A DNA stretch of 23,582 nt from a virus. Taxonomy: Duplodnaviria > Heunggongvirae > Uroviricota > Caudoviricetes. The translations under genes and the position numbers were made by a program. Shown piece by piece: positions 526-14,768 of this stretch. How positions within the stretch are numbered: position 1 is the stretch's first letter; each line of letters begins with the position of its first letter. The notes beneath the pieces were generated by a model. It was not told the DNA's origin. It saw nothing but the letters and a program-made list of their open reading frames with translations, and did not search any database. The stretch lies in the IMG/VR virus record IMGVR_UViG_2925908680_000008. One strand, written 5' to 3'.

Positions 526-695
526 GACACTTCCCCTCAGACTGTATTAATGCGCCGGAAAGCGCGTGTATTTAAATCATCCCAGGAACCGTTGAGCACC
601 AATTAGTTGCGCGAAGTAATCGGCACCAGCGTTCCGAACAATTTCCAACTTAACGTTCTGATCATTGTTTCCTGCTGCAGGGACAATCCCACGAT

Positions 696-1349
696 TCATA
701 GCCAGCGCCCGGATATTTCTTCCAGTTTTTCCAGAGCTGGCTTGCAGGCCGCATCAATAACTTCACGGACCATTCCGGCGAGCTGTTCTTCTTCTGTCGG
801 CGTTGTTACTTCCACACCTGATGGTTTCCCGCCCTTATCCCATACGCCCAACGGTACGAGCGCAACGTGATCGATAAGAAATGGCGTACCCTCAATGAAA
901 AAATTGTCCTCGCCCATTACATCAGGAACTTCTGCCCCACCGGACGCACCACAAAACACAACCGACGGGCTGGTGGATACCTCCCCCCGTGCTTTCTGGA
1001 TGTAATCGATGATTTCCTGCCCGTAAATCCGGCATACGCCCCACACCTCGTCACCGCGAATATACGGCAACATGACGGTGCCAATAATGCGCGACCGTTC
1101 GCCCACGTCTTCAAGGGTTTTGCTTTCGGGATGGTCGATAATGACGGGTACTCCGGCGCAACGTTCCAGGAACTGCGGATTGAGATAAGTTTGCGGTGAA
1201 CGCCAGACAAATTCTTTTTCTTCGGCGCGATAGGCCATTCCGGTTCCTGTGATACGCAGGTTAATCAGCCACATGTTGGAAAACTGATAAGGCGACGGTA
1301 GCTGACCGTCCCGAATCTGCTTTGCCGCCTCAATTTCTGTTAAAAGCAT
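696..1349 (-). CDS. hypothetical protein (217 aa), intact in this copy
   Basis: ATG at 1349 with GGGGGA RBS; protein-like C-terminus; family not recognised. Confidence 0.5.
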   Translation of the reverse strand: MLLTEIEAAKQIRDGQLPSPYQFSNMWLINLRITGTGMAYRAEEKEFVWRSPQTYLNPQFLERCAGVPVIIDHPESKTLEDVGERSRIIGTVMLPYIRGDEVWGVCRIYGQEIIDYIQKARGEVSTSPSVVFCGASGGAEVPDVMGEDNFFIEGTPFLIDHVALVPLGVWDKGGKPSGVEVTTPTEEEQLAGMVREVIDAACKPALEKLEEISGRWL

Positions 1350-1413
1350 AATGTCCCCCGGTTATAAGCAATAAGCCCCACCAAATCCGGCAGGGCTGAA
1401 ATCAGCACGTTTT

Positions 1414-1998
1414 TCATGCCCCCGCGAGGCTTGCAACGTTAATTTTAACCAGGCGACGGGGAGGGATTTTGAAAGCACTAAGCCAGTTATTCGGATCCCC
1501 CTGATATTCAGTAATCCGCCGTCCGGCTTCATCCATTCTTACGGTTTTACGCAAATAGCCCGGCGTATTTTCCACAGCCCACTGAACACTGTCTTTTGCA
1601 GCCTGGTAAATCTGATCTTCCAGCACCGCCAGCGTTGCAGAATCTGAAACGGAACGAATATCCACATCACTGAATTTTTTAGCCAGCTTCTGTGCACCAA
1701 TTAATGCACGCTTGCGGTAATCCATCGACTTTTCACCAGCAAACGGGGCTGGAGCGCGACGGCCCATATTGCTGTATGCGGAATCCGCTTTAGCCTGGGC
1801 TTCTGCCAGTGAGGATTCATCTTCGACTGACGCGACGATGTTTTTATTCGCGTCATCCTCGTCCGCTTTTGTGAAATCCTGTGCGGGGATCGCATTCAGA
1901 ATTTCGATAATCTCCTGCGGAGTGCTGCCCTGCGACTCTGACAGAGCGTTAACCACCTCCATCAGTTTTAATCGCAAATCTTCTTTGCTTGCTGGCAT
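1414..1998 (-). CDS. hypothetical acidic protein (194 aa)
   Basis: ATG at 1998 preceded by GAGGTGG RBS; ORF track start at 2007 is a GTG inside the RBS; family not recognised. Confidence 0.5.
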   Translation of the reverse strand: MPASKEDLRLKLMEVVNALSESQGSTPQEIIEILNAIPAQDFTKADEDDANKNIVASVEDESSLAEAQAKADSAYSNMGRRAPAPFAGEKSMDYRKRALIGAQKLAKKFSDVDIRSVSDSATLAVLEDQIYQAAKDSVQWAVENTPGYLRKTVRMDEAGRRITEYQGDPNNWLSAFKIPPRRLVKINVASLAGA

Positions 1999-2037
1999 TT
2001 TTACCACCTCTCTTTTTTCACCAAAAAATCACGACCA

Positions 2038-2217
2038 TCAGGCCGGACGTTCTACGGGATAAAGCGCCCGCTGCATTAAACGCCGGGCGACCTCATGAAT
2101 GCTCGGAGCAATCCCCAGCGGAGAATTGCGGCGTTCCTCGTCCTGGATGCGCTGTAATGCTTCAATCTGATCACGAGCGAGTAAAACGGGTTTCACGCTG
2201 GCTTTTCTCATAGTCAT
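2038..2217 (-). CDS. small hypothetical protein (59 aa), first gene of terminal operon
   Basis: ATG at 2217 (MTMRKASVK...) preceded by AGGAGA RBS; ORF track start further upstream lacks RBS. Confidence 0.4.
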   Translation of the reverse strand: MTMRKASVKPVLLARDQIEALQRIQDEERRNSPLGIAPSIHEVARRLMQRALYPVERPA

Positions 2218-2346
2218 ATCTCCTGAACAAAACAATGATTATGATTGCACAAACTGAAATAACGATCTACATCATTGCAATTTATGAAACAATAACGCAT
2301 GATGATCGCGTTCTTCCCATTGACTTCAATCACCTGAAAAACAAAG

Positions 2347-2375
2347 CCCGCAACACTTCTGGCTGCGGGTTTTTT
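2347..2375. terminator. hairpin (CCCGCA / TGCGGG, 11-nt loop) followed by T6; U-rich on both strands, possible bidirectional intrinsic terminator
   Basis: Stem-loop read directly from sequence; T-run 2370-2375 on plus, TTTGTTTTT on minus. Confidence 0.45.
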
Positions 2376-2379
2376 ACTG

Positions 2380-2407
2380 GCACAAAAAAGCCGGGAAAAA
2401 TCCCGGC
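2380..2407 (-). terminator. intrinsic terminator downstream of PerC-family gene
   Basis: Minus-strand hairpin GCCGGGA-UUUU-UCCCGGC followed by UUUUUUGUG, immediately after stop at 2413. Confidence 0.6.
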
Positions 2408-2412
2408 CTCCG

Positions 2413-2700
2413 TCACTGACTGCAATTTTTCGATCCAGGGTATTTCCTGAATGCCTTACCATTGGGCTGATGTAATCCCATCCCGGCATGTGCCCGGCTG
2501 ATGGTTTCGCGCATTTCCCCGAAATTATCCTGCCTTGCTGGTGGGCGTGCTGCCTTGCGGATACATTCCGCGCGACGTTTTGCCGCCTGTTCCCGTGCCT
2601 TGTCATCATTCGCCAGCATGATGACCTCAGCCCACCGCGCCGCCGCTCTCCGGTACAGACCACGCGCTTCCAGTGCTTCCGCTTTGCTGTCGTGAATCAT
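2413..2700 (-). CDS. PerC-family transcriptional regulator (PerC homolog, Pch-like)
   Basis: 95 aa; motif KAEALEARGLYRRAAARWAEV matches my recollection of the PerC family signature; start ATG overlaps upstream stop as ATGA. Confidence 0.65.
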   Translation of the reverse strand: MIHDSKAEALEARGLYRRAAARWAEVIMLANDDKAREQAAKRRAECIRKAARPPARQDNFGEMRETISRAHAGMGLHQPNGKAFRKYPGSKNCSQ

Positions 2701-3227
2701 GCGCCTGTTTTCTCCTTTGCTGCCCGGCGCTGACGTTTGCGCTTCTCATTCAGCGCCACCAGCCGCGTTTCTGCGTCCTGTTGTTCCTGTGGTGTCACCT
2801 CGCCGCACGGCTGGCCTTTCAGGTCGTAGCGTACCCCACCAGCCATTAAGGCGCGGTAATAGCGCGGACACTGCGCATAAGATGCCAGCGTCGCACGCAA
2901 TGCCCCTGGACCGAATGCCAGCCCCCTGACGGCGAGATCCTGCATCAGGTCGTCGAATATCCCCACCTTAAGCGGCTTCGGTGCTTCCCGGCTGAATAAT
3001 TCAGGCCACAACTCAGTGAGGCGGTTAACGCGCCTGCGGTTTTTGCGCTGGCGTTTGGTCATATGCCGCCACGGTGTCGCCCCTGTGGGCTTCTGCTGCG
3101 CTTTCTGGTTACCGGGCATCACTTTATGCGCCGATGTGGTTTTATCCTGCTCCTGCGCCGCCTGCGTCGTTTTCTGCGGCGTGCCGTAAATGCCTTTCGG
3201 TTTTCTGTTAATGGTCAGCTTAGTCAT
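2697..3227 (-). CDS. ProQ/FinO-domain RNA-binding protein with basic N-terminal extension
   Basis: PLKVGIFDDL ... LRATLASYAQCPRYYRALMAGGVRYDLKGQPCGEVTPQE closely parallels the ProQ N-terminal FinO-like domain; start taken at ATG 3227 (GGAG RBS), alternative ATG at 3239. Confidence 0.8.
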   Translation of the reverse strand: MTKLTINRKPKGIYGTPQKTTQAAQEQDKTTSAHKVMPGNQKAQQKPTGATPWRHMTKRQRKNRRRVNRLTELWPELFSREAPKPLKVGIFDDLMQDLAVRGLAFGPGALRATLASYAQCPRYYRALMAGGVRYDLKGQPCGEVTPQEQQDAETRLVALNEKRKRQRRAAKEKTGA

Positions 3228-3239
3228 GCTTTGCTCCAT

Positions 3240-3611
3240 CGTTACAACTGTCTACCAACTGTCCACCGATATAATTTATTGATTTATTTGATATTATTTA
3301 CACATAACTAAAAAATAACCTATCAATTGTCTACCAACTGTCTACCGCATTAATACATTGATAATTAATGATTTTTTCAAAATGGTAGACAGAGTAGACA
3401 GTTAAAAGAGAAATTTTAAAAATGAACCCTTAACTATCTGTTTTTTTATATACCCCCCGTGGTTTAGGAATATAGAAACAACTGTCCACTCTCTACCACA
3501 TTTAAAAATATCTATACAATTCAATGCATTAATTGGTAGATGGTTGGTAGAGGATTAAGTATTACTGTCTACCAACCGTCTACCTTTACGTTTCAGCTCA
3601 TAAATTTCGTA
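3240..3611. repeat. iteron-type replication origin with AT-rich unwinding region
   Basis: At least 10 copies of CAACTGTCTACC-like motif in both orientations (e.g. 3245-3267, 3323-3346, 3384-3403, 3479-3497, 3533-3553, 3563-3584) interspersed with AT-rich tracts, directly 3' of the replication gene. Confidence 0.7.
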
Positions 3612-5417
3612 TTATGTTCTGTCGTTAATCCCTGTTGCTGCTGGCAACCAGCTATCAGCATCATCATCTAACAGAACATTTGTTATCACTCGCCCTTTAT
3701 CCTGGCCTTTAGTGCATTTAGCCCGCTTATACTCCTTTCCGTATTCCGCCATAGCACCAGGCATATCAGTGCCAAAGCGTTTCAGTGATACTGGTTTTCC
3801 CAGACCATGCGCTGACATATAGGCTAAATAAGCATGATACAGATATCGCCTCGGGCTAAATGGCACTATTCCCGCATTGCCCACCATCATTCCTTCACAT
3901 TTAACCAACGACATCAGATAGCCGCAAAAGTCCACCAGTGAATCACCCTCACGTTTTATCATCAGAGCCTCTTCTGATTTCTGCTGCTCATATAACAGAC
4001 GTCTGGCTTCATCCTGGTCAGAAAAACGAGTAAGCAGGTGGCGAATAACTACCGCCAGTTCGCCTTCTATTTTTTCCACCAGCATGGGATCGCGTTCGTT
4101 CTCCGGTACGACCTCAGAGAAATTAAATATCACCCTACGACGCGAGATCCCCCCGCTTCGGTCACTGAATGACATGGCGTTATTGTTTACTGCCAGCACT
4201 ACCGCCGGAATACGAGTGGAGTATGGGGCTTTATGTTTCGGGTCGATCGCCACCTTGTCACCACCAGTAATTGCCTTAATTCCTGCACCATCTCCAGCGT
4301 AGCGGGCCATATCCGGCATGATAATCAGCGAAAAGCCAACGACTAACGCGCGTTCCCTTGCGTCTTCCAGCGCCTTCATGCTTGCCGATACTGTATTGAC
4401 CTTACCCGCCAGCATGGTACAAATCTCCGCCATCACACTTTTACCGCTTCCGCCCGGCCCCGTTACCTCAAGGAATAACTGCCAGTCGTACCGGTTCGCC
4501 AGTACCATGAATAATGCCGCCAGTACGCGATCTGCTTTACGATCGTTATTTGCCACCGAACGACGCAGCCACTTCCAGAAATTCGGCGCATGTGTTGCCA
4601 GCGTTTCCCCCTCTGCTGGTGGGCTGAACGGTAATTCACTGGCATTTAACAACCAGTCATTTTTGTTATGCTCCCGAAAATTTCCTGTCCGGGTATCAAA
4701 TACCCCGTTACTGAATCCAATAAGATTCCTGTCTGCCCCGCCCATAACAGGCAGGCTCAATTTCATTGTGTCTACGGCAAATTTAATGGCGTTTTGCGAA
4801 TAACTGATTCCAGCATCAATAAAAATCTTCGCCATAGATCGCTGGAGTTCCTTATCAGATACAGGCTCCCAGACAATTCCGTTGTAATGGTGAACTACAT
4901 CAGAATCGTCATTTATAGCCAGTGCCCTTCCATAATATTCAAGCAATACTTCCCCTCTCTGGCTGGCTCCCATCTGATTTAGTGCTGGCCTGGGTAGGTC
5001 ACTATTTTTTGTGACTAATTTCATCGCTGAAACTTCCCCGCGCTCTGCCTGTTCGCGGATCCGTTGCAGGTAATCGCGCCAGTTCTCCGGCTCCCGGTCG
5101 GTGATGCCTTTGTATAATTTCGCCTCCTGTACGCCAGCCAGTGCCAGTTTTTCAGCGATAGTATTGATCTGGATTGGCTCTATCTCCCCCGCGAGATAGA
5201 CACGCGCAAAGCGGCGTTCATCGTCGACAATGCGGATATTCGCCAGGTCTGCCAGTTGCTTTGGCCCCAGATAAACAGGTGGCACGTTATCGCCGTGTTT
5301 TCGTCCTTCGCTTTCAATCCAGTGTTGAGCATGGGAGTAAGCGTCCGTCCCGGCAAAAATGATTACCTCAGTGAATTTATCCTTCGGCTGATATTTCAAA
5401 TTCGGTGCGTTTTTCAC
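3612..5417 (-). CDS. replication initiation primase/helicase-like protein (P4-family primase C-terminal-type P-loop NTPase)
   Basis: 601 aa; Walker A GPGGSGKS; GTG start at 5417 with GGGAGGT RBS, overlapping upstream stop (GTGA); adjacent iteron origin. Confidence 0.75.
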   Translation of the reverse strand: MKNAPNLKYQPKDKFTEVIIFAGTDAYSHAQHWIESEGRKHGDNVPPVYLGPKQLADLANIRIVDDERRFARVYLAGEIEPIQINTIAEKLALAGVQEAKLYKGITDREPENWRDYLQRIREQAERGEVSAMKLVTKNSDLPRPALNQMGASQRGEVLLEYYGRALAINDDSDVVHHYNGIVWEPVSDKELQRSMAKIFIDAGISYSQNAIKFAVDTMKLSLPVMGGADRNLIGFSNGVFDTRTGNFREHNKNDWLLNASELPFSPPAEGETLATHAPNFWKWLRRSVANNDRKADRVLAALFMVLANRYDWQLFLEVTGPGGSGKSVMAEICTMLAGKVNTVSASMKALEDARERALVVGFSLIIMPDMARYAGDGAGIKAITGGDKVAIDPKHKAPYSTRIPAVVLAVNNNAMSFSDRSGGISRRRVIFNFSEVVPENERDPMLVEKIEGELAVVIRHLLTRFSDQDEARRLLYEQQKSEEALMIKREGDSLVDFCGYLMSLVKCEGMMVGNAGIVPFSPRRYLYHAYLAYMSAHGLGKPVSLKRFGTDMPGAMAEYGKEYKRAKCTKGQDKGRVITNVLLDDDADSWLPAATGINDRT

Positions 5418-5704
5418 TTCTTACCTCCCGCAACCAACATTGCTCGGATTTTTTTAATATTCGTGGCTGCACGTCTCGCCACCGCCTGTTGTTTGTTTTC
5501 CATCAGAATAAAATCACGATCAAACTGACGGCGCGGCATTACGCAGTCATATTCGTAAGCCTCACGGCGGTAGGTGATATTGCCTGGCGTAACGTGACGA
5601 ATAACCACTCGTCCCCCGCGTCTGGTGTCGCGGTAAATATCGCCGTGTCTGATTTCAGGCCGAGCGGGGCCGCTGGCAGTAAAGCCAGAATTTTTCTGTT
5701 TCAT
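5414..5704 (-). CDS. hypothetical basic protein (96 aa), coupled to replication gene
   Basis: ATG at 5704 with AGGAAAA RBS; stop overlaps start of downstream gene. Confidence 0.5.
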   Translation of the reverse strand: MKQKNSGFTASGPARPEIRHGDIYRDTRRGGRVVIRHVTPGNITYRREAYEYDCVMPRRQFDRDFILMENKQQAVARRAATNIKKIRAMLVAGGKK

Positions 5705-5708
5705 GGTT

Positions 5709-5909
5709 TTATTTTCCTGTCAGCAGTTCCGGTTTTATTTCCGCACGAATACAGAGTTCAGAAAAAAATTCAGGAGAACCAACAATCTCATTACTTTTCA
5801 GTCGGCATTGTGATTTCACTTTTCCTTTATCCAGGTAAACCAGTATGCGTCCGGTGAAATCATCTGGCGCACTCAGGGTAATTGTCATTGTTGCTTGCTG
5901 ATTATCCAT
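5709..5909 (-). CDS. hypothetical protein (66 aa)
   Basis: ATG overlaps upstream stop (ATGGATAA); tight operon arrangement. Confidence 0.45.
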   Translation of the reverse strand: MDNQQATMTITLSAPDDFTGRILVYLDKGKVKSQCRLKSNEIVGSPEFFSELCIRAEIKPELLTGK

Positions 5910-6267
5910 AATTCACCCCCTGAATAACCTGATAACCGCAACTGGTCAGCAATTCGATAAATTCCGGCAGTGTTCCGAAACAGCAATCATCTCGCAGCCG
6001 TTCTCGGGATACTTCAACGCCGTTTTCGTAGTGACTCACCATGCGTCCGGTAAAATGCAAATCATCATCGTGATGGCACGTTGACGGTTTAATCAGTCGC
6101 GCACGCTCTGCCAGTTCCAGCAATGCTTCAACACTTCCGGCAATTGCACCATCCGGCAGGTGGTAATTACGCACTATGCGCCCGTTCTCCACATGGACCA
6201 GTAGCTGCCCGGTAAATATCTCGTCAAACTGAATGCTGTTAAGGTCAGAAATTGACAGGTTATGCAT
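5902..6267 (-). CDS. hypothetical protein (121 aa)
   Basis: ATG at 6267 overlaps upstream stop (ATGCATAA). Confidence 0.5.
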   Translation of the reverse strand: MHNLSISDLNSIQFDEIFTGQLLVHVENGRIVRNYHLPDGAIAGSVEALLELAERARLIKPSTCHHDDDLHFTGRMVSHYENGVEVSRERLRDDCCFGTLPEFIELLTSCGYQVIQGVNYG

Positions 6268-6625
6268 GGTGCACCTCCTGGCGAATACGGGCAGCGAATA
6301 CCATCACGCAGCCATCAGGAGATTGCTGGCGTGCTTCCTGTTCGCTGGTGGCCTCGATGTGAATTACACGCGGTTGTGCCGTACTCAGGGCGATAAAACG
6401 CCAGATAAAATTGTTCTCGCATTTCTGAATAAACAGCGTGTTTTCTTCGCGCCCTTTCCATGTTGCCGAGATATAGCCCATGTCATTGAGCATCTCGCAG
6501 GCATCAACCAGCGTATCGGCGGCTACGTGTACAGTGTTTTTACCGTCAGCTATGCAATCACGGTGCACCGCCAGGAAGGTGTATATAAATTTAGGGTGAG
6601 TTTGGGTATGCTGTGTTCCAGCCAT
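6260..6625 (-). CDS. hypothetical protein (121 aa), first gene of replication operon
   Basis: ATG at 6625 (MAGTQHT...) with GAGGT RBS; E. coli-like codon usage, unlike the antisense read-through upstream. Confidence 0.5.
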   Translation of the reverse strand: MAGTQHTQTHPKFIYTFLAVHRDCIADGKNTVHVAADTLVDACEMLNDMGYISATWKGREENTLFIQKCENNFIWRFIALSTAQPRVIHIEATSEQEARQQSPDGCVMVFAARIRQEVHHA

Positions 6626-6812
6626 AATCGTTACCTCGTTTAACGGTTTGGTTAGACGCCCCGCTACTGCCGCAAACAGTTCGGGGCGTTGTCGTTTACA
6701 TCCTCTTACTGAGGTGTGATTTAAATTAAATTCAACTGAATCACAGGTCAAGTATTTTTTGTGATTCTTTTTTGTGTATACTGAATCACATCTTTTGTTT
6801 AGGAGAATGCAC
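6626..6812. promoter_or_regulatory. divergent promoter/operator region between replication operon and small regulator gene
   Basis: CTGAATCACA direct repeats at 6737-6746 and 6781-6790 with inverted TGTGATTC between; TATACT -10-like hexamer at 6777-6782; AGGAGA RBS at 6801-6806; 8-bp stem hairpin around 6650-6690. Confidence 0.5.
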
Positions 6813-7118
6813 ATGGCAAAAAACACTATCAACGACAAATCAAAACAGATTTCAATTCGTATCCCACATGATGCTTTTGATGGCATGGAATCCGTAAAAC
6901 TGGACGGCGAAAGCAACGCCGGATTCATAGTAACCGCCATGCGCGGTGAGATCGCCCGCCGCCAGGCAGAAGGAAGAGGAGAAAACCCCCTGGTTTCTTC
7001 GCTCGATGCACTGGCGCAGGTGGAAAAAATCGGTGTCAAAGCTGCCGAGGAGATCGGGCAACTCGTCACCGTCGCGCGTGAAGAACTCCAGCGACGCAAG
7101 GTCAAAGAGCAGGAATAG
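6813..7118 (+). CDS. putative ribbon-helix-helix DNA-binding regulator (candidate island repressor)
   Basis: 101 aa from ATG 6813 with AGGAGA RBS; ISIRIPHDAFDGMESVKL...NAGFIVTAMRGEIARR has a strand-helix-helix pattern; family assignment is by eye only. Confidence 0.45.
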   Translation: MAKNTINDKSKQISIRIPHDAFDGMESVKLDGESNAGFIVTAMRGEIARRQAEGRGENPLVSSLDALAQVEKIGVKAAEEIGQLVTVAREELQRRKVKEQE

Positions 7119-7175
7119 CCACTATCAGCGCCATAGTTTGAGGAACGCAGGCGCATTGCTTTACAGGACAGCACC

Positions 7176-7355
7176 ATGAGCGACACAGAATCAACCAAAA
7201 CACCATCACCAACTCGTAAGAGACGACGCAAAAATATAGCGCATGAACATGAATCAGAAAGATTCGCACCTTGTTCGTTTGCTCTTGAGAAATTCCTTAA
7301 AGAGCACAGGAAAAAGCTCTCGTTGCAAACCTTGGAACGAACCAAATCTGACTGA
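7176..7355 (+). CDS. small basic hypothetical protein (59 aa)
   Basis: ATG 7176, stop TGA 7353-7355; below ORF-track cutoff; RKRRRK basic patch. Confidence 0.3.
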   Translation: MSDTESTKTPSPTRKRRRKNIAHEHESERFAPCSFALEKFLKEHRKKLSLQTLERTKSD

Positions 7356-7756
7356 TCACATTGCCCACCAGCCGCAAATGTGGCATTGTTGGTGATGCGT
7401 TCAAGTTTGATTTGCCGTAATACCCACTGGCGACCCTCTGCGGTCGCCTTTGTTTTATCCAGAACGAAATCAGACATCAGATTGATCAGCACCTGGCGAC
7501 CTGACAAAATCGTATCGGTCGCGCCACCAGCAAAATTTTTTGCTTTCCGGACGATGTGGCCAACGGTATTTTGCAGCAAAATATTCTGCATTTCTGGCGT
7601 GCTGTGGCGACGGTGATCAGCGCCTTCACATTGAACGAACTTGTCGCTAAAATTCACCCACATAGCAAACATCGCGGTGCTGTAGGTAATTCGTTCACAA
7701 AGGCGCTCCGGCAACGGGGCGCTTTCTCTTTTTGTAACGGTCAGAGCGTTACACAT
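7355..7756 (-). CDS. hypothetical protein coupled to ant; 3' end undefined (no in-frame stop)
   Basis: ATG 7756 overlaps ant stop (ATGTGTAA) with GGAGGAAAA RBS; good codon usage for ~134 codons, then frame continues stop-free to 6260. Confidence 0.4.
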
Positions 7757-8549
7757 GGCTGTTTTCCTCCATGCGACGGGCTAACCAACGCTGCGAAAGA
7801 CGAATTAATTCAGCTTTCCGCTGGTGGTAGTCCTGGCCTAACTCAATCAGCGTGATATTGCTCCGCTCAAGGTAAGAAAGGTGCTCAAGCTGCAACGTGC
7901 TCATGTGGTCGCGTGGTTCACCTGTGATGCCGTTCGCCTGCGCCCACTGTTTTGCAGTCATGCCACCCAGCACGATACGCGCCAGCATATTGGCTTCCGT
8001 GGTGTAGTGGTGCTGTAGAGTGTTTTTACCCAGTTCAGTCCGGTACGCCTCCAGCGCGGCGCACATCGGCTTAAAGTAGCTGGCAACGGTGATACGGGCT
8101 TTCAGTTCCCTGCGTAACGCTGCGGAACGCACTGGCGCTACCTTGTGTAGCTCCTCCTCGCATTTGATGAAGTACTGACGAACGGCACGGCCCTGTTCGG
8201 TGCGTTCGACCATCGCCAGTTCTTTTGCCATGTTCACGGTGATGATGTACTCAAGAGCGGTTTGCTGGCGAGATTTTGCGCTCACCGGATCGGGTCGGCT
8301 CAAATATTCAACAACTTCATAATCCACGCCTTCCGTGAAGCCGTATTCTTCAATGCGCCCCTTGATCCACGAACGGAAAACGCGCCCTACACCTAACGCC
8401 TTATGCAACGCTCTGGCGCTAACAATATTGGTTTCACGCCCGCCAATAACGCCGGAAATAACCGGGATAATTTCGCCAAAATTTTGCAGATTCTGGTTTT
8501 CAGGCCGAACGAAGCCCTGCCCCTGTACGGGCGTTTTTCGCAGTTTCAT
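7749..8549 (-). CDS. phage antirepressor-like protein (AntA/Rha-like domain)
   Basis: 266 aa; TNIVSARALHKALGVGRVFRSWIKGRIEEYGFTEGVDYEV resembles the AntA/Rha antirepressor domain; AGGAG RBS. Confidence 0.6.
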   Translation of the reverse strand: MKLRKTPVQGQGFVRPENQNLQNFGEIIPVISGVIGGRETNIVSARALHKALGVGRVFRSWIKGRIEEYGFTEGVDYEVVEYLSRPDPVSAKSRQQTALEYIITVNMAKELAMVERTEQGRAVRQYFIKCEEELHKVAPVRSAALRRELKARITVASYFKPMCAALEAYRTELGKNTLQHHYTTEANMLARIVLGGMTAKQWAQANGITGEPRDHMSTLQLEHLSYLERSNITLIELGQDYHQRKAELIRLSQRWLARRMEENSHV

Positions 8550-8627
8550 AAAAACTCCTGCTATCGAATTAAGTTACTTTTATTTGCTGGTGGATAGCTG
8601 GGGGCTTCTGGCCCCGTAGCCATTTAA

Positions 8628-8825
8628 TCAGGTAGCTGTTCCGCGTGATTCAGCAATACGCTGATTAATCCACTCGTCAATTTCACTCTCAACGAAAGCA
8701 ATAGCTCGCGAGCCAATTTTAACTGATGCAGGAAATTTACCTTGCCCCATAAGGCGATAAATCCATGCCTTGCTATATCCAGTTCTACGCTGAACTTCTG
8801 TTAAACGAATAAGCGTATTTGACAT
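8628..8825 (-). CDS. alpA: AlpA-family (Phage_AlpA/Vis-like) transcriptional regulator/excisionase-type HTH protein
   Basis: 65 aa; IRLTEVQRRTGYSKAWIYRLMGQGKFP...ESEIDEWINQR aligns with the AlpA pattern. Confidence 0.85.
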   Translation of the reverse strand: MSNTLIRLTEVQRRTGYSKAWIYRLMGQGKFPASVKIGSRAIAFVESEIDEWINQRIAESRGTAT

Positions 8826-8893
8826 ATATTTACCTCATAACGTCTACTCAATTTGACGAGGTAATCCTGGCACAGAAATAACGAATATTTTCA

Positions 8894-9070
8894 TACCCTC
8901 AGGCCTAATGGTTACCGGAAGGAAATTAACCCTAAGGGTGATGGTAATCGGAAGGAAATTAACCCTAAGGGTGATGGTAATCGGGAGGAAATCTACCCTA
9001 AGGGTGATGGTAAAATTGACGGGGAAGATAAAAAAATACCCTCAGGGTAACAGTAAATCACCCTCAGGGT
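8894..9070. promoter_or_regulatory. operator-like repeat array upstream of alpA: three tandem 33-bp repeats plus two extra palindromic sites
   Basis: 33-bp units at 8908-8940, 8941-8973, 8974-9006; motif ACCCT-N-AGGGT at 8929-8939, 8962-8972, 8995-9005, 9038-9048, 9060-9070. Confidence 0.55.
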
Positions 9071-9085
9071 ATGCGGTATGGTGCG

Positions 9086-9883
9086 TTAATCCGGCTTTGC
9101 GTTCTTTTGGCTGTTGTCTCGGTTAATAGGGCAGGCAGTCCTCTCTATGAGCGTTGCAAGTGCATTACTTGCCCCCCACTGCTTAAGCTCCCTGGTTATC
9201 GCTTCTTGATTTCCCCTGGTGGCAAAATCATTTTCTGGATCGTAATTGGCCCACTCTCTGTTTCTAATCTCAATAGCCTTAGCTAATGGGTCTTTATCCC
9301 AGTATTTATATAAGTGTATCGGGCGCTCTTGCTCTAACTGCTCTATCCTTGCCCTTAACTCTGCGTTTTCTTTTTCCAGCATTGCGATTTGGGATAATAA
9401 ATCATCCTCTGTACGCAACTCTTTCTTTTCAATATCGCGTCCTTGTGCCTCGTCATTTTCAGAAGAGTTAGCGCCTTCCAGCTTCGTTAACGCGTCAAGG
9501 ACATCGGGAAAAATTGCGAAAATTTCACCCCTTATAAATCCAATGTTCTCAAATTCGGGATCTTCCCAATAACCGGACACCAGAAAACCATTTTCATCCC
9601 TCTCACCAGGTAAACAACCACGTTTCCGAACCGCATTCAGATTTCTATAAAGAACATCATAATCAAATTCATCCCGATACGGGTTACAAAAAGATTCCAA
9701 CAGCTTAAATTCATTTACTGTGTACAGGCGGATATGTTCTCCGCTTATTCTCCTGAGTATCCAAGTTATGACATCTGAAACATCATAATCATCACCAGCG
9801 ACCTTAAGCACGACCTCAAGAAATTCACGTAAAGAAATAAAATCTTTTTTGTATTCGTTTAATTCGGCATGAATATCAATCAT
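9086..9883 (-). CDS. uncharacterised cargo protein (265 aa) with central coiled-coil segment
   Basis: ATG 9883 with GAGGTG RBS (ORF track start at 9889 is GTG); appears AT-richer than neighbours by eye; LEKENAELRARIEQLEQER heptad-like stretch; no recognised catalytic motif. Confidence 0.55.
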   Translation of the reverse strand: MIDIHAELNEYKKDFISLREFLEVVLKVAGDDYDVSDVITWILRRISGEHIRLYTVNEFKLLESFCNPYRDEFDYDVLYRNLNAVRKRGCLPGERDENGFLVSGYWEDPEFENIGFIRGEIFAIFPDVLDALTKLEGANSSENDEAQGRDIEKKELRTEDDLLSQIAMLEKENAELRARIEQLEQERPIHLYKYWDKDPLAKAIEIRNREWANYDPENDFATRGNQEAITRELKQWGASNALATLIERTACPINRDNSQKNAKPD

Positions 9884-10011
9884 ACGCACACCTCAGCGTC
9901 CTCTACTGTAGTGGCTGTACCAGTCCGTCGAGGTGTACGGATTTTCGGGAGCGACCCTAGACACAGCCTTTTCTTTCGTCGCTCAAAGTCTACTACTGTA
10001 TACGCAACCAG

Positions 10012-11226
10012 TCATCCACATTTTCCGAACTTGCCATGCACCACGTTACCGCCATGCTCGAGCGAATCCATATAGTCGGCATACCACTGGAGCATCTCCC
10101 GGCGACCATCCAGATATTGCGCATGGTTGTATGTGCCACGAATTGAGTTTTTATCGACGTGTGCGAGCTGCGTCTCTATCCACGCGGTGTTATAGCCCTG
10201 CTCATGCAAAATGGTGCTCATGGTGTGCCGGAATCCATGACCAGTAACGCGCCCGGCATAGCCGATACGACGAATGAGCACATTCATCGCCATTTCACTC
10301 ATTGGCTTACTGTGGTGAATACGACCGGGGAAAATAAACTGATACTGGCCTGTCATGTTTTTTAACTGCTCCAGTATTTTTATTGCCTGTTCTGGTAATG
10401 GCACGCAATGCGGACGGCGCATCTTCATTCGTTCTTTAGGCACTTCCCACAAACGATTATCAAAATCGATCTCCTGCCATTCTGCCTGCCGTAATTCCCC
10501 GGGTCTGACACCTGTCAGAATTAATAGCCGCATTGCCAGTTTGACGATCTGGCTTCCGGTGTACGTATTAAAAACGCGGAAAAATTCCGGCAGTTCGTCG
10601 GCCTTCAAATAGGCGTAATGCTCTTTTTTATGTGGAGCAAATGCGCTCACCAGATCAGGGGCTGGATTATATTCGGCGCGTCCGGTGATGATTGCGTACC
10701 GGAACACCTCGCCGCATCGCTGGCGAACCTTACGCAATTTTTCAGTCGCACCACGGTCATTAAGACGGGAAAGAACCGCCAGCAATTCCATCGGCTTAAT
10801 TTCTGCGATCGGCCTACCGCCAATGTACGGAAAAACATCTTTTTCAAACGTCTCGATCATTTCCTCGGCGTATGACGATGACCACCTGTCGATCCGCTTT
10901 TCGTACCATTCGCGAGCAATACCCTCAAAAGTATTGCCAAATTTGCTCGCCTGTTCTCGCTTTTGGGCTTTTCTGGCCTCACTTGGATTTATACCACCAG
11001 CAAGAAGCCTTTTAGCCTCATCCCTTGCCGCCCTGGCATCAGACAGGGACACATCAGGGTACACACCCAACGACAACATTTTGGGCTTTCCTGCAAACCT
11101 GTAGCGCAGTCGCCACCCTTTCGAACCGTTCGGCTCAATGAGCAACGAAAGCCCGTTACCGTCATTGAGTGTATAAGCCTTTTCTTTCGGCTTCGCGCGC
11201 CTGATGGCAAGGTCTGAAAGCAGCAT
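10012..11226 (-). CDS. int: P4-type tyrosine integrase (site-specific recombinase)
   Basis: 404 aa from ATG 11226 with GGAG RBS; N-terminal LSDLAIRRAKPKEKAYTLNDGNGLSLLI... typical of P4-family integrases; C-terminal HGFRHT and Y-containing catalytic region. Confidence 0.9.
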   Translation of the reverse strand: MLLSDLAIRRAKPKEKAYTLNDGNGLSLLIEPNGSKGWRLRYRFAGKPKMLSLGVYPDVSLSDARAARDEAKRLLAGGINPSEARKAQKREQASKFGNTFEGIAREWYEKRIDRWSSSYAEEMIETFEKDVFPYIGGRPIAEIKPMELLAVLSRLNDRGATEKLRKVRQRCGEVFRYAIITGRAEYNPAPDLVSAFAPHKKEHYAYLKADELPEFFRVFNTYTGSQIVKLAMRLLILTGVRPGELRQAEWQEIDFDNRLWEVPKERMKMRRPHCVPLPEQAIKILEQLKNMTGQYQFIFPGRIHHSKPMSEMAMNVLIRRIGYAGRVTGHGFRHTMSTILHEQGYNTAWIETQLAHVDKNSIRGTYNHAQYLDGRREMLQWYADYMDSLEHGGNVVHGKFGKCG

Positions 11227-12079: not shown

Positions 12080-12345
12080 GCTGGTTGACACTTTCCGGCT
12101 TAAGACCTTAACAAATCTTAACATCGCAGGTTGACACACTTGACACTTTTTCGCGAAAAACCTTATCAAACCTTAGCATTTCTAAGCATGGCAACTTGAC
12201 ACTTTTCGCGATTTTTTCGGCTTTTTGACGTGGTAAATCTGGCGCAAAGCCAGTAACGGCGGGGTTTACAGCGAGGTTGACACTTTTTCGCGTTCAGAGT
12301 GTAAAGTGTCAACCCGGCAGACGGCCTGACTTGACACTTTTCGCG
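12080..12345. repeat. array of TTGACAC(TTTTCGCG) repeats between small junction ORF and TerS-like gene 3' end
   Basis: TTGACAC at 12085, 12131, 12140, 12196, 12277, 12331 plus inverted GTGTCAA at 12306; four copies share TTGACACTTTT(T)CGCG. Confidence 0.6.
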
Positions 12346-12358
12346 AATTTTACGGTCA

Positions 12359-12883
12359 TTAATGGGATGATTTTTCCCACTCAGCCAGGGCGTTTAGTCC
12401 GGCTTCACTCCAGTTATCCAGCTCATCGGGACAATCACCTGCAACATAGCAGAGCTCACAACGCAGCATACGAATTGCCAGCCTGGCATTTTCCCGAAAA
12501 TCATACTGCTCAAAGTAATATTGCCCAGCATAATCCTCAAGGCAGATAGCACCATCATCAAGAAATTGCACTTCACAGCATAGTTCCCCGGCTGCATCCT
12601 GCACACGCTGCTGTATGTCATCGTCCGTTACTGGTGCAGGGATTTTACCGTCTCTGGCCTTAACTGCTTTCCAGAACTCGCCCCACGTCATTTCCAGCGT
12701 TCTCTCTGGCCACATTTCAGAAACGGTATCTTTTCCCTGTGCTGGTGGGCTGTTCCGCTGCTCTGTCGCTTCCACATCGATTTTTTTACCGGACATGACC
12801 ACTTCGCCTTTCTCGATCCAGTCGTAAACTGTCTGGCGGCTTACGCCTTTGTGTTTGGCATATTCTGCCTTGCTCATAAACAT
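12359..12883 (-). CDS. TerS-like HTH protein (copy 2)
   Basis: Identical 174-aa translation to 1-525. Confidence 0.45.
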   Translation of the reverse strand: MFMSKAEYAKHKGVSRQTVYDWIEKGEVVMSGKKIDVEATEQRNSPPAQGKDTVSEMWPERTLEMTWGEFWKAVKARDGKIPAPVTDDDIQQRVQDAAGELCCEVQFLDDGAICLEDYAGQYYFEQYDFRENARLAIRMLRCELCYVAGDCPDELDNWSEAGLNALAEWEKSSH

Positions 12884-13053
12884 GACACTTCCCCTCAGAC
12901 TGTATTAATGCGCCGGAAAGCGCGTGTATTTAAATCATCCCAGGAACCGTTGAGCACCAATTAGTTGCGCGAAGTAATCGGCACCAGCGTTCCGAACAAT
13001 TTCCAACTTAACGTTCTGATCATTGTTTCCTGCTGCAGGGACAATCCCACGAT

Positions 13054-13706
13054 TCATAGCCAGCGCCCGGATATTTCTTCCAGTTTTTCCAGAGCTGGCT
13101 TGCAGGCCGCATCAATAACTTCACGGACCATTCCGGCGAGCTGTTCTTCTTCTGTCGGCGTTGTTACTTCCACACCTGATGGTTTCCCGCCCTTATCCCA
13201 TACGCCCAACGGTACGAGCGCAACGTGATCGATAAGAAATGGCGTACCCTCAATGAAAAATTGTCCTCGCCCATTACATCAGGAACTTCTGCCCCACCGG
13301 ACGCACCACAAAACACAACCGACGGGCTGGTGGATACCTCCCCCCGTGCTTTCTGGATGTAATCGATGATTTCCTGCCCGTAAATCCGGCATACGCCCCA
13401 CACCTCGTCACCGCGAATATACGGCAACATGACGGTGCCAATAATGCGCGACCGTTCGCCCACGTCTTCAAGGGTTTTGCTTTCGGGATGGTCGATAATG
13501 ACGGGTACTCCGGCGCAACGTTCCAGGAACTGCGGATTGAGATAAGTTTGCGGTGAACGCCAGACAAATTCTTTTTCTTCGGCGCGATAGGCCATTCCGG
13601 TTCCTGTGATACGCAGGTTAATCAGCCACATGTTGGAAAACTGATAAGGCGACGGTAGCTGACCGTCCCGAATCTGCTTTGCCGCCTCAATTTCTGTTAA
13701 AAGCAT
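13054..13706 (-). pseudogene. frameshifted copy of the 217-aa hypothetical gene (A5 instead of A6 at 13256-13260)
   Basis: ORF track gives 180 aa (13164-13706) with divergent C-terminus after MGEDNF; copy 1 has A6 at 898-903. Confidence 0.5.
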
Positions 13707-13770
13707 AATGTCCCCCGGTTATAAGCAATAAGCCCCACCAAATCCGGCAGGGCTGAAATCAGCACGTTTT

Positions 13771-14355: not shown

Positions 14356-14393
14356 TTTTACCACCTCTCTTTTTTCACCAAAAATCACGACCA

Positions 14394-14573
14394 TCAGGCC
14401 GGACGTTCTACGGGATAAAGCGCCCGCTGCATTAAACGCCGGGCGACCTCATGAATGCTCGGAGCAATCCCCAGCGGAGAATTGCGGCGTTCCTCGTCCT
14501 GGATGCGCTGTAATGCTTCAATCTGATCACGAGCGAGTAAAACGGGTTTCACGCTGGCTTTTCTCATAGTCAT
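14394..14573 (-). CDS. small hypothetical protein (59 aa), copy 2
   Basis: Duplicate of 2038-2217. Confidence 0.4.
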   Translation of the reverse strand: MTMRKASVKPVLLARDQIEALQRIQDEERRNSPLGIAPSIHEVARRLMQRALYPVERPA

Positions 14574-14763: not shown

Positions 14764-14768
14764 CTCCG

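What the first reader, a model, noticed from the sequence alone, without database searches (positions are those of the whole stretch)
6626..7118. Divergent promoter with CTGAATCACA operators and a putative RHH regulator facing the replication operon
The 187-bp interval between the replication operon start (6625, minus) and the small plus-strand gene (6813) carries two direct CTGAATCACA repeats and one inverted copy overlapping a TATACT -10-like hexamer. The plus-strand product has a strand-helix-helix pattern. This is the one point where transcription runs opposite to the rest of the island, as expected for a master-repressor/operator switch.
Basis: partly seen in the sequence, partly recalled or inferred. 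Interest (0 to 1): 0.4.

Follow-up and report, generated by a model that had tools for sequence, protein, structure and literature searches.

The report
Overlooked repressor switch in phage satellites
The small opposite-strand gene encodes a ribbon-helix-helix DNA-binding protein whose four binding boxes cover two back-to-back promoters in front of the replication genes of an E. coli phage satellite, and the same unstudied module sits in the model satellite EcCICFT073, where no repressor has been described.

Summary

- **Context.** The window is about 1.9 tandem copies of a 12,358-bp Gram-negative PICI-type satellite.
- **The gene.** 6813-7118 (+) encodes a 101-aa YlcI/YnfO-family protein with a ribbon-helix-helix (RHH) fold and a long C-terminal helix.
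- **The operators.** There are four 8-9-bp boxes, not three, spaced 22-23 bp apart. They bracket the -10 elements of two back-to-back promoters, one for the Icd-like/primase operon and one for the gene itself.
- **Key evidence.** In 25 distinct related loci from more than 12 genera, the box sequence changes together with beta-strand residues 12 and 14 (permutation p ≤ 1e-4). The rest of the protein and the promoter cores stay constant.
- **Missed layer 1.** A conserved two-hairpin element folds on the plus strand and ends in a terminator. It looks like an ~80-nt RNA antisense to the Icd-like ribosome-binding site.
- **Missed layer 2.** A minus-strand reading frame (7756→6260) stays open through the whole module in most loci, resembling phage P4's eta/kil nested genes.
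- **Why it matters.** EcCICFT073 carries the module. No function is reported for this family in the literature searched. Nothing here is experimentally tested.

The parts
6813..7118 (+). YlcI/YnfO-family RHH gene (101 aa). Beta-strand is roughly residues 10-17 (KSKQISIRIP), helices at 19-28 and 35-54, C-terminal helix 59-100. The second copy is at 19169-19474.
6802..6805 (+). Shine-Dalgarno GGAG of the RHH gene.
   Evidence: Read from the sequence. Conserved in related loci.
6714..6722 (.). Operator box 1, GTGTGATTT. It lies at the predicted start site of the leftward promoter.
   Evidence: The box position (-98 from the ATG) is conserved in 25 distinct loci.
6723..6728 (-). Leftward promoter P_L, -10 hexamer TAATTT.
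   Evidence: It is the best sigma-70-like site at the same position in about 20 of 26 distinct loci.
6736..6745 (.). Operator box 2, CTGAATCACA, in the P_L spacer and abutting the -35.
6746..6751 (-). P_L -35 hexamer TTGACC (TTGAC conserved), with a 17-bp spacer.
6755..6760 (+). Weak -35-like TTTTTT of the rightward promoter P_R, back-to-back with the P_L -35.
   Evidence: This is a weak match and is an inference.
6760..6767 (.). Operator box 3, TGTGATTC, in the P_R spacer.
6777..6782 (+). P_R -10 hexamer TATACT (TATAAT in other genera).
6781..6790 (.). Operator box 4, CTGAATCACA, over the predicted P_R start site.
6260..6625 (-). First gene of the leftward (replication) operon: an Icd-like protein of 121 aa. 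Its Shine-Dalgarno GAGG is at 6634-6637.
   Evidence: NCBIfam NF033153 at 6e-23. PGAP annotation in strain JNU. An Icd-like gene holds this position in most related loci.
6607..6612 (+). Candidate -10 hexamer (TATGCT) of a plus-strand antisense RNA. In loci with the other N-terminus it is the extended -10 TGnTATGAT.
   Evidence: Nearly every locus listed has a TAnnnT-type hexamer 16-17 nt upstream of stem-loop 1. EcCICFT073 has TGGTATGAT. Inference only.
6619..6698 (+). Putative antisense RNA of about 80 nt. Stem-loop 1 (6620-6653) carries the anti-Shine-Dalgarno sequence CCUC in its loop. Stem-loop 2 (6655-6690) is a terminator followed by a U-containing tail.
   Evidence: MFE -31.6 kcal/mol, z -4.18. 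RNAalifold on the plus strand gives 21 pairs, 13 with compensatory changes, against 5 pairs on the minus strand. The big stem pairs at 95.1% as plus-strand RNA with 31 G.U pairs, and 84.7% as minus with 1 G.U. Pair counts beat 0 of 500 shuffles.
7176..7355 (+). orf59, a small basic protein of unknown function that appears to be co-transcribed with the RHH gene.
   Evidence: phrog_21027. Annotated by PGAP in strains JNU and PD23. A homologue is present in EcCICFT073.
7429..7458 (+). Terminator-like hairpin with a T-run that would end the rightward transcription unit.
   Evidence: It is not well conserved in strain JNU.
6260..7756 (-). 498-codon open frame. Its ATG (7756) overlaps the antA stop and is preceded by GGAGG. 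It runs antisense through orf59, the RHH gene and the operator region, in frame into the Icd-like gene. This resembles P4's eta/kil nested genes.
   Evidence: EcCICFT073 has a 433-codon equivalent.
7749..8549 (-). AntA/AntB-family gene, the last gene of the upstream alpA unit. It is translationally coupled to the long open frame.
   Evidence: Pfam AntA at 2.4e-23..

Best explanation
**What it is.** This is the immunity and regulatory switch of an AlpA-type Gram-negative phage-inducible chromosomal island (PICI).

**Core mechanism (best supported, still inferred).**
- The 101-aa YlcI/YnfO-family protein is a ribbon-helix-helix (RHH) repressor.
- Dimers insert a beta-ribbon into four 8-9-bp boxes spaced about two helical turns apart. 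Residues 12, 14 and the invariant Arg16 would read the DNA.
- The C-terminal helix probably joins dimers into higher oligomers.
- Boxes 1 and 2 bracket the -10 of the leftward promoter P_L. P_L drives the Icd-like gene, small genes, DUF4222 and the P4-type primase.
- Boxes 3 and 4 bracket the -10 of the gene's own promoter P_R.
- Occupancy would therefore silence the replication operon and autoregulate the repressor.
- Different islands carry different strand/box pairs, which amounts to heteroimmune specificity classes.

**Layer 2 (inferred, less certain).**
- An ~80-nt plus-strand RNA (6619-6698) has two stem-loops and a terminator.
- It is fully complementary to the P_L leader, the Shine-Dalgarno sequence and the start codon.
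- It would block translation of the Icd-like gene.

**Layer 3 (inferred, less certain).**
- On helper induction, AlpA-driven transcription from upstream enters the module on the minus strand.
- That RNA is translated through the long open frame (7756→6260), which is coupled to antA and nested over the Icd-like gene.
- Translation would let the transcript escape Rho termination and the antisense RNA.
- The transcript would collide with the convergent repressor transcription and reach the replication genes, as P4's eta/kil arrangement does.
For: **Shown by tools**
- Family and fold.
  - NCBIfam hit.
  - AlphaFold2 strand-helix-helix plus a long helix.
  - A GESN turn between the two helices.
- Four boxes sit at fixed positions (-98, -75, -53, -30 from the ATG) in 25 distinct loci.
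- Box sequence tracks residues 12 and 14.
  - Operator similarity is 0.906 for the same residue pair and 0.706 for different pairs, permutation p ≤ 1e-4.
  - Correlation with identity in the rest of the protein is only 0.15.
- The window and an E. coli relative (L019) are 90-100% identical at the DNA level from codon ~22 onward. They are only 40-67% identical over most of the first ~21 codons and the upstream region (shared promoter core -56..-27: 90%), and they carry different boxes.
- A T13F change, predicted to face the protein core, leaves the operator unchanged (L008).
- The P_L -35 (TTGAC) and -10 are conserved at one position.
- Boxes are absent elsewhere in the islands.
- Synteny is constant: int - alpA - (AntA/Bro) - [RHH, opposite strand] - Icd-like ... 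DUF4222 - primase.
- RNA element.
- Open frame.
  - It has zero stops in the 186 nt upstream of the RHH ATG in 18 of 26 loci, against 0.6 expected. The other two frames carry 1-8 stops.
  - It is open for 216-696 codons in 25 of 29 loci.
  - All indels between E. coli variants are multiples of 3.
  - Its start is coupled to the upstream gene, or follows a conserved TAATACAGAGATNTAACC-ATG context.
  - Its end is in frame with the first leftward gene, or 5-20 nt before it.

**From the literature**
- The P4 eta/kil mechanism is summarised in PMC10111431, citing Forti 1999.
- The existence of a repressor in Gram-negative PICIs is called 'unclear' in PMC6092414.
Against: - No experiment supports any step. 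DNA binding, repression, both promoters, the antisense RNA and translation of the long frame are all predictions.
- Strand/box covariation could partly reflect physical linkage, because the strand codons lie only 30-50 bp from box 4. The concerted change of all four boxes, with conserved promoter cores between them, argues against pure linkage.
- Fold-level support is modest.
  - Foldseek found nothing.
  - hhalign against Mnt and omega was not significant.
- P_R has a poor -35, and in the window the P_L -10 matches only 3 of 6 positions.
- The long frame shows no amino-acid-level constraint: synonymous to nonsynonymous changes are about 6:32, with no third-position excess.
- The long frame is closed in 4 of 29 loci (L003, L004, L017, L031).
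- The antisense RNA promoter lies inside coding sequence and has no clear -35 in the window.
- The ProQ/FinO gene is not seen in most related loci within the flanks available.
Confidence: 0.7

Rival explanations
1. The RHH protein is the antitoxin of a type II toxin-antitoxin pair with orf59 as the toxin, and the boxes only autoregulate that pair. It would stabilise the island rather than control replication.
For: - There is a weak Pfam match to PSK_trans_fac, E 0.025.
- A small ORF follows 57 nt downstream and is also present in EcCICFT073.
Against: - orf59 is missing from many loci that keep the RHH gene and all four boxes, for example L019, L025, L027 and L029.
- orf59 matches no toxin family.
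- Two of the four boxes cover the divergent promoter of the replication operon.
- The position between alpA and the primase operon is fixed across genera.
Confidence: 0.06
2. The plus-strand ORF is not a functional gene. The real gene is the long minus-strand ORF, and the repeats are bound by another factor such as AlpA or a helper-phage or host protein, or they are replication iterons.
For: - The minus frame is kept open in most loci.
- Gene callers and PGAP sometimes extend the Icd-like gene into it.
- Third codon positions coincide in the two frames, so simple periodicity cannot separate them.
Against: - The plus-strand product matches a curated family well above its cutoff and folds confidently as an RHH.
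- It has a conserved Shine-Dalgarno sequence.
- The synonymous-to-nonsynonymous ratio is higher in the plus frame (0.94) than in the minus frame (0.69).
- Outside the overlap, the minus-frame amino-acid sequence is not conserved.
- The boxes covary with the plus-strand protein's strand residues.
Confidence: 0.05
3. The RHH protein binds the boxes but is not the quiescence repressor. It could instead be a Cro-like or late regulator, an activator of one promoter, or an omega/ParG-type centromere-binding protein.
For: - RHH proteins such as omega and ParG bind arrays of 7-8-bp repeats in direct or inverted orientation (established knowledge, from memory).
- Box orientation differs between classes: alternating in most, two direct then two inverted in the Asn14 classes.
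Against: - The boxes overlap core promoter elements (spacer and start site) of both promoters. That is the geometry of repression.
- No ParA-type partner appears in the island annotation.
- The gene is the only one oriented against the inducible operons, as expected for a function expressed in the quiescent state.
Confidence: 0.1

Closest known systems
Phage P22 immI region (Mnt and Arc RHH repressors, divergent Pmnt/Pant, sar antisense RNA). Established knowledge, from memory.
   Same: - A small RHH repressor, with an added C-terminal oligomerisation helix as in Mnt.
- The repressor gene is transcribed divergently from the operon it represses.
- Its operators overlap both promoters.
- A short antisense RNA covers the ribosome-binding site of the first gene of the repressed operon.
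   Different: - There is no significant sequence similarity to Mnt (hhalign E 0.05).
- There are four boxes 22-23 bp apart rather than one compact 17-21-bp operator.
- The repressed operon starts with an Icd-like gene and carries replication genes, not ant.
- The whole module lies inside an antisense open frame.
Satellite phage P4 immunity region (PLL/PLE promoters, nested genes eta and kil, CI RNA). Summarised in PMC10111431, citing Forti et al. 1999.
   Same: - The gene order matches: alpA-like gene, long ORF, then the primase operon.
[quoted passage not shown]
- It contains an internal promoter and an in-frame nested short first gene.
- Translation of the long ORF is the proposed way for upstream transcripts to read through.
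   Different: - P4's immunity factor is the CI RNA. No C4 or isrK match is found here.
- Here a protein repressor gene with its operators is embedded on the opposite strand of the eta-like frame.
- The Icd-like protein gave no tblastn match to P4, which is part of the phage collection searched.
Stl/Rpr master repressors of Gram-positive PICIs (SaPIs). PMC6092414.
   Same: - The repressor gene is divergent from the excision/replication operon of a phage satellite.
- Allelic diversity is expected to define induction or immunity classes.
   Different: - Stl proteins are helix-turn-helix repressors that also control xis.
- Here the fold is RHH.
- int and alpA lie outside the controlled operon.
- AlpA activation is the documented trigger.
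- Derepression by a helper-phage protein is untested.
Omega (pSM19035) and CopG-type RHH repressors. Established knowledge, from memory.
   Same: - RHH dimers read short 7-8-bp repeats that can be direct or inverted.
- The window's box AATCACA happens to fit omega's WATCACW heptad.
   Different: - Omega heptads are contiguous, whereas these boxes are two helical turns apart.
- There is no sequence homology.
- The genetic context is a plasmid, not a satellite.
FinP/FinO of F-like plasmids and c4-icd-ant of phage P1. Established knowledge, from memory.
   Same: - An antisense RNA of about 80 nt with two stem-loops is complementary to the ribosome-binding site of a leader gene.
- In P1 that leader gene is icd.
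- This island encodes a ProQ/FinO-family protein.
   Different: - There is no Rfam match.
- The RNA itself is unverified.
- A ProQ/FinO homologue was found in only 2 other related loci within the flanks held.

Membership tests
Ribbon-helix-helix (MetJ/Arc/CopG) DNA-binding proteins | An N-terminal beta-strand followed by two helices, with a G-x-S/T/N turn before helix B. | tested here: met
Ribbon-helix-helix (MetJ/Arc/CopG) DNA-binding proteins | A homodimer that forms an antiparallel beta-ribbon inserted in the major groove. | not testable with these tools
   Only monomer prediction is available, so the strand is not paired in the model.
Ribbon-helix-helix (MetJ/Arc/CopG) DNA-binding proteins | Sequence-specific binding to repeated operator sites. 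| tested here: inconclusive
   There is no binding assay. Indirect support comes from four boxes that covary with strand residues 12 and 14 across 25 distinct loci, p ≤ 1e-4.
NCBIfam NF041551 YlcI/YnfO family | A score above the curated cutoff for the N-terminal 42-residue model. | tested here: met
   65.7 bits against a cutoff of 30, over residues 9-50. PGAP gives the same name.
Gram-negative PICI (AlpA type) | int, alpA and a primase/replication gene co-oriented in an island of about 10-20 kb at a specific attachment site. | tested here: met
   int, AlpA and a P4-type primase. The unit is 12,358 bp. It sits next to tRNA-Gly in U90. The layout matches EcCICFT073.
Gram-negative PICI (AlpA type) | Induction and packaging by a helper phage. 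| not testable with these tools
   The tandem 1.9-copy form of the window is compatible with a replicated or concatemeric state but does not prove it.
P4-type eta/kil nested-gene read-through device | [quoted passage not shown] | tested here: met
   ATG 7756 overlaps the antA stop by 8 nt and follows GGAGG. The same holds in L027, L028, L032 and L034. A conserved start context is seen where alpA is the upstream neighbour.
P4-type eta/kil nested-gene read-through device | An internal promoter and a short first gene nested in the same frame. | tested here: met
   The predicted P_L lies inside the frame. The Icd-like gene is in frame in 8 of the 13 loci examined in detail. In four of the other five the frame stops 5-20 nt before the gene start, and in L031 the frame is closed. 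The promoter is predicted, not mapped.
P4-type eta/kil nested-gene read-through device | Translation of the long ORF prevents Rho-dependent termination. | not testable with these tools
   Only indirect evidence exists: the frame is kept open (18 of 26 loci against 0.6 expected) without amino-acid conservation.
P4/P1-type RNA immunity (CI / c4, Rfam C4 and isrK) | A match to the C4 or isrK covariance models. | tested here: not met
   There is no hit at E ≤ 1 in the unit or at E ≤ 10 in 6540-6830.
P22 Mnt family | Sequence homology to Mnt. | tested here: not met
   hhalign probability 1%, E 0.05. The resemblance is in architecture only.
FinP-like cis-antisense RNA | Two stem-loops plus a U-tail on the strand opposite the target ribosome-binding site, with covariation. 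| tested here: met
   Whether the RNA is expressed and where its 5' end lies are unknown.

The most novel reading that the evidence does not exclude
Many AlpA-type Gram-negative PICIs, including the model EcCICFT073, have a so-far unrecognised three-layer immunity switch.

1. A YlcI/YnfO-family RHH repressor that exists in at least eight operator-specificity classes, making islands heteroimmune.
2. A FinP/sar-like antisense RNA over the ribosome-binding site of the Icd-like leader gene.
3. A sequence-unconstrained 'bridge' ORF that completely overlaps the repressor gene and its operators on the opposite strand. It exists only to keep AlpA-driven read-through transcripts translated.

On this reading the repressor gene is a functional gene embedded antisense inside a translated frame. 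The 'missing' repressor of Gram-negative PICIs was hidden because early annotation called the long frame instead.
Probability: 0.4. Interest if true: 0.78.

Novelty: new variant of a known kind. Interest (0 to 1): 0.6.

Why it matters
**An open question becomes testable.**
- The PICI literature says Gram-positive islands have a master repressor.
- This module is a concrete candidate for that repressor.
- It is present in the model island EcCICFT073.
- About 18% of complete E. coli genomes (958 of 5,426) have a DNA match to the region.

**It gives a simple experiment.** The strand/box pairs form a small natural 'recognition code' for an RHH family: QS, LT, MT, xN, MN, QN, ST and AK each pair with a distinct box. 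Swapping residues and boxes would test it directly.

**It would be a rare, clear case of a maintained antisense frame.** If translation of the bridge ORF is confirmed, this is a reading frame kept open for the act of translation rather than for its product, fully overlapping a functional gene on the other strand.

**It matters for engineering.** PICIs are being developed as delivery vehicles, and this switch would control their replication.

Tried and rejected
- **Chance repeats.** Rejected.
- **Known RNA family at 6626-6812.** None was found. There is no C4, isrK or FinP match. The only hit is a sub-threshold match to the R1162 antisense RNA (18.6 bits against a gathering score of 55), treated as chance.
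- **Foldseek against the PDB.** No significant hit.
- **Profile search of PDB sequences.** It gave only a weak helix-hairpin-helix match to Hef (E 0.009) over the C-terminal region. The AlphaFold2 model shows one continuous helix there, so I did not pursue it.
- **hhalign against P22 Mnt and omega.** Not significant.
- **tblastn against 50,697 phage records.**
  - The RHH protein gave no match.
  - The Icd-like protein matched one PICI-sized record.
  - The family therefore appears to belong to satellites and prophages, not to sequenced free phages.
- **Extra boxes elsewhere in the island (alpA, int).** None beyond chance.
- **Toxin-antitoxin reading with orf59.** Disfavoured because orf59 is often absent.
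- **ProQ/FinO as an obligatory partner of the antisense RNA.** Inconclusive. Outside the identical U90 island, homologues were seen only in L009 and L014 within the flanks held.
- **Codon-position test on the long frame.**
  - Outside the RHH gene there is no amino-acid constraint, so I do not call it a conventional protein gene.
  - Inside the RHH gene, third positions of the two frames coincide, so periodicity cannot discriminate. The synonymous/nonsynonymous ratio favours the plus frame only modestly.
- **Forti 1999 (PMC94026).** It could not be read, so the P4 mechanism is cited through PMC10111431.
Full report
**Context**

The window holds about 1.9 head-to-tail copies of a 12,358-bp unit. 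Positions 1-11226 equal 12359-23582 at 99.98% identity with two 1-nt gaps. Everything in the finding therefore recurs 12,356 bp downstream, for example the boxes at 19092 and 19137.

The region is 100% identical to the chromosomes of E. coli cq9 and U90. In U90 a single copy lies next to tRNA-Gly. The gene order there is: int, a 267-aa gene, alpA, antA/antB, then a YlcI/YnfO gene on the opposite strand, then Icd-like, two small genes, DUF4222, a P4-type primase, ProQ/FinO and PerC. This is the layout of a Gram-negative AlpA-type PICI.

**Check of the observation**

- The two exact CTGAATCACA copies (6736-6745 and 6781-6790) and the inverted core TGTGATTC (6760-6767) are present.
- A fourth copy, (G)TGTGATTT at 6714-6722, was missed.
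- The real layout is TGTGATT-N17-AATCACA twice, with box centres 23, 22 and 23 bp apart.
- The 8-mer occurs three times in 130 bp and nowhere else in the unit, where 0.38 matches are expected.
- TATACT (6777-6782) abuts the second direct copy, not the inverted one.

**The protein**

- The 101-aa product matches NCBIfam YlcI_YnfO_N at 65.7 bits against a cutoff of 30. It matches the unannotated phrog_6522 over its full length.
- Pfam gives only a weak RHH-type hit, PSK_trans_fac at E 0.025.
- AlphaFold2 on a 26-sequence alignment gives mean pLDDT 80. The model has an extended segment at 10-18, helices at 19-28 and 35-54, and a long helix at 59-100.
- Foldseek and hhalign against Mnt and omega were not significant.
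- The RHH assignment therefore rests on fold and family membership, not on homology to a characterised repressor.
- Short forms of 59-63 aa that lack the C-terminal helix also exist (L016, L017, L035 and EcCICFT073).

**Comparative test of the operator hypothesis**

The homologues are about 60-98% identical, but their differences are concentrated in the N-terminal strand. I collected 29 loci with 25 distinct upstream regions. They come from Escherichia, Salmonella, Klebsiella, Enterobacter, Serratia, Edwardsiella, Yersinia, Erwinia, Pantoea, Photorhabdus, Xenorhabdus and others.

In nearly every locus, the most-repeated 8-mer upstream of the gene lies at the same four positions: -98, -75, -53 and -30 from the ATG. 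Its sequence depends on residues 12 and 14, which are the positions predicted to face DNA next to the invariant Arg16:

| Residues 12/14 | Box sequence |
|---|---|
| QS | TGTGATTC |
| LT | GTGTGTTTC |
| MT | GTGTATTTCA |
| [ILV]N | GTGTGTATT |
| MN | GTGTGCA / GTGTACA |
| QN | TGG(G/T)ATTCA |
| ST | GTGTAAG |

- Operator similarity is 0.906 for pairs with the same two residues and 0.706 for pairs with different residues (permutation p ≤ 1e-4). Its correlation with identity in the rest of the protein is only 0.15.
- The same class is found in distant genera. QS occurs in E. coli, Klebsiella, Serratia and Edwardsiella.
- Different classes occur within E. coli on otherwise near-identical genes.
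  - The window and L019 are 90-100% identical at the DNA level from codon ~22 onward.
  - They are 40-67% identical over most of the first ~21 codons and the upstream region. The exception is the shared promoter core at -56 to -27, which is 90% identical.
- A change at the core-facing position 13 (T to F in L008) leaves the operator unchanged.
- Linkage could contribute to the association. However, four dispersed boxes change in concert while the promoter cores between them stay fixed. That is what a protein/operator pair predicts.
- Among the 120 closest homologues the class counts are QS 34, LT 27, MT 25, MN 10, ST 9, QN 7 and xN 3.

**Promoters**

- On the minus strand, about 20 of 26 distinct loci have their best sigma-70-like site at one position. 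It is TTGAC(N), then 17-18 bp, then TAnnnT.
- In the window this site is TTGACC at 6751-6746 and TAATTT at 6728-6723.
- Box 2 fills the spacer next to the -35, and box 1 covers the predicted start near 6716.
- On the plus strand, TATACT (TATAAT elsewhere) at 6777-6782 has only a T-rich -35 at 6755-6760.
- Box 3 lies in that spacer and box 4 lies over the predicted start.
- The two -35 regions are back-to-back, 3 bp apart.
- This geometry predicts repression of both promoters, so the protein would silence the leftward operon and regulate itself.
- The generic promoter scan did not flag either promoter in the window. These are conservation-based predictions.

**A plus-strand RNA element inside the 'intergenic' interval**

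- The segment 6620-6690 is conserved as two hairpins. With a manually drawn structure, 86.7% of cells pair and 9 of 16 pairs show compensatory changes. No shuffle out of 500 reaches these values, and slid controls give 26-43% pairing.
- The large stem pairs at 95.1% when read as plus-strand RNA, with 31 G.U pairs. Read as minus-strand RNA it pairs at 84.7% with 1 G.U pair.
- A U-containing tail follows the large stem only on the plus strand.
- RNAalifold predicts both stem-loops de novo on the plus strand: 21 pairs, 13 compensatory, -22.0 kcal/mol. On the minus strand it finds only 5 pairs at -6.6 kcal/mol.
- The 82-nt plus-strand segment folds with z = -4.18.
- The loop of stem-loop 1 is CCUCGUU, the complement of the Icd-like Shine-Dalgarno sequence.
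- A TAnnnT-type hexamer lies 16-17 nt upstream of stem-loop 1 in nearly every locus listed.
  - In the window it is TATGCT at 6607-6612.
  - In loci whose first gene has an unrelated N-terminus, including EcCICFT073, it is the extended -10 TGnTATGAT.
- I infer an RNA of about 80 nt that is antisense to the leader, ribosome-binding site and start codon of the leftward operon.
- In shape it resembles FinP or sar. It matches no Rfam family. Its expression is untested.

**A reading frame kept open on the opposite strand**

- The minus strand is open from ATG 7756 to the Icd-like stop at 6260, a total of 498 codons. This frame covers orf59, the RHH gene and the whole promoter/operator region.
- The same frame is open for 216-696 codons in 25 of 29 loci, while the other two minus frames close within 3-45 codons.
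- In the AT-rich 186 nt upstream of the RHH ATG, the frame has no stop in 18 of 26 distinct loci.
  - Dinucleotide shuffles predict 0.6 such loci.
  - The other two frames carry 1-8 stops each.
  - Four more loci have a single stop there; where the frame end was mapped (L019, L027, L029, L036) it lies just upstream of the leftward gene's start.
- Between E. coli variants, every indel in 7119-7756 is a multiple of 3.
- The amino-acid sequence is nevertheless not constrained. Variable sites by codon position number 23, 21 and 14, and synonymous to nonsynonymous changes are about 6:32.
- The frame starts overlapping the antA stop, behind GGAGG. Where alpA is the upstream neighbour, it starts after a conserved TAATACAGAGATNTAACC-ATG context.
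- The frame ends in frame with the first leftward gene, or 5-20 nt before that gene's start.
- This matches what is described for satellite P4.
  - eta contains an internal constitutive promoter and the in-frame gene kil.
  - Its translation prevents termination, so the upstream late promoter reads through (PMC10111431, citing Forti 1999).
  - The P4 gene order is consistent with this.
- Here the immunity element inside the eta-like frame is not an RNA. It is a protein gene on the other strand.
- Third codon positions of the two frames coincide. The synonymous-to-nonsynonymous ratio favours the plus frame (0.94 against 0.69).

**Model**

- Quiescent state (inferred):
  - The RHH repressor is made from P_R and occupies the four boxes.
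  - P_L is off.
  - Residual leader transcripts are blocked by the antisense RNA.
- Induction (inferred):
  - The helper phage raises AlpA (PMC6092414, PMC11773190).
  - Transcription from the alpA side runs through antA into the bridge frame and is translated.
  - The transcript therefore resists Rho and the antisense RNA.
  - It opposes the convergent repressor transcript and expresses the Icd-like and primase genes.
  - AntA/Bro proteins could act as anti-repressors, but they are absent from several loci.
- The boxes occur only here, so int and alpA are not under this repressor.

**What is known, and novelty**

- In the library searched, YlcI/YnfO (DUF3950) has no described function.
- In PICI papers the protein appears only as a label on maps (PMC13612085).
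- No paper links an RHH protein to Gram-negative PICI control.
- The founding paper states that a global repressor in Gram-negative PICIs is 'unclear'.
- The model island EcCICFT073 carries the module:
  - a 59-aa YlcI/YnfO gene (C_RS30120, strand KSQALKARVP);
  - an orf59 homologue;
  - boxes of sequence GGTGTGGCCCAC;
  - a divergent Icd-like gene;
  - a 433-codon bridge frame.
- The high-numbered RefSeq locus tags on these small genes suggest they were added late. I infer that they were absent from the original annotation.
- An RHH repressor with operators at divergent promoters is a classical device. The combination found here is a new variant of it.
- The second and third layers remain hypotheses.

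Noticed in passing
window 1-23582: The window is about 1.9 tandem copies of a 12,358-bp island, whereas E. coli U90 and cq9 carry one integrated copy. It probably comes from an excised concatemer or an over-assembled circle. Two 1-nt indels between the copies shift the frames of 696-1349 against 13054-13706, and of 1414-2007 against 13771-14394.
   Followed up: partly
window 9900-9967 (-): Rfam int-alpA RNA (RF02996) at 45.5 bits, above its gathering score of 35.8. It lies between int and the 267-aa gene.
   Followed up: no
window 8908-9013: A 33-bp tandem repeat of 3.2 copies at 93% identity, immediately upstream of alpA (which starts at 8825 on the minus strand). It could be the binding array of the alpA promoter.
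   Followed up: no
window 12080-12350: Five to six copies of a TTGACACTTTT(T)CGCG-like motif between the int-side junction and the last gene of the island. They may be promoters, iterons or a packaging site.
   Followed up: partly
L038 (NC_004431.1 1377930-1388654), EcCICFT073: The model Gram-negative PICI contains a short (59-aa) YlcI/YnfO gene, an orf59 homologue, its own box type (GGTGTGGCCCAC) and a 433-codon antisense open frame. The N-terminus of that frame is a remnant of AntA fused in frame.
   Followed up: yes
window 7176-7355 (+): orf59 is a very basic small protein (RKRRRK motif, phrog_21027). It follows the RHH gene in many E. coli islands and is absent from others. Its function is unknown.
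   Followed up: partly
window 2697-3239 (-) and 2413-2700 (-): ProQ/FinO-family and PerC-family genes lie downstream of the primase. The ProQ/FinO protein is a conceivable partner for the putative antisense RNA, but homologues were found only in L009 and L014 within the flanks held.
   Followed up: partly
window 6618-6691 (-): A sub-threshold Rfam match to the R1162-like plasmid antisense RNA (18.6 bits, E 0.55). The matched segment includes the CUAACCA motif, the Shine-Dalgarno sequence and the AUG. It is probably chance.
   Followed up: no
window 6813-7115 (+), residues 45-86: A weak profile match of the C-terminal region (LDALAQVEKIGVKAAEEI) to the helix-hairpin-helix domain of Hef (PDB 1x2i, E 0.009). 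AlphaFold2 models this stretch as one continuous helix.
   Followed up: partly
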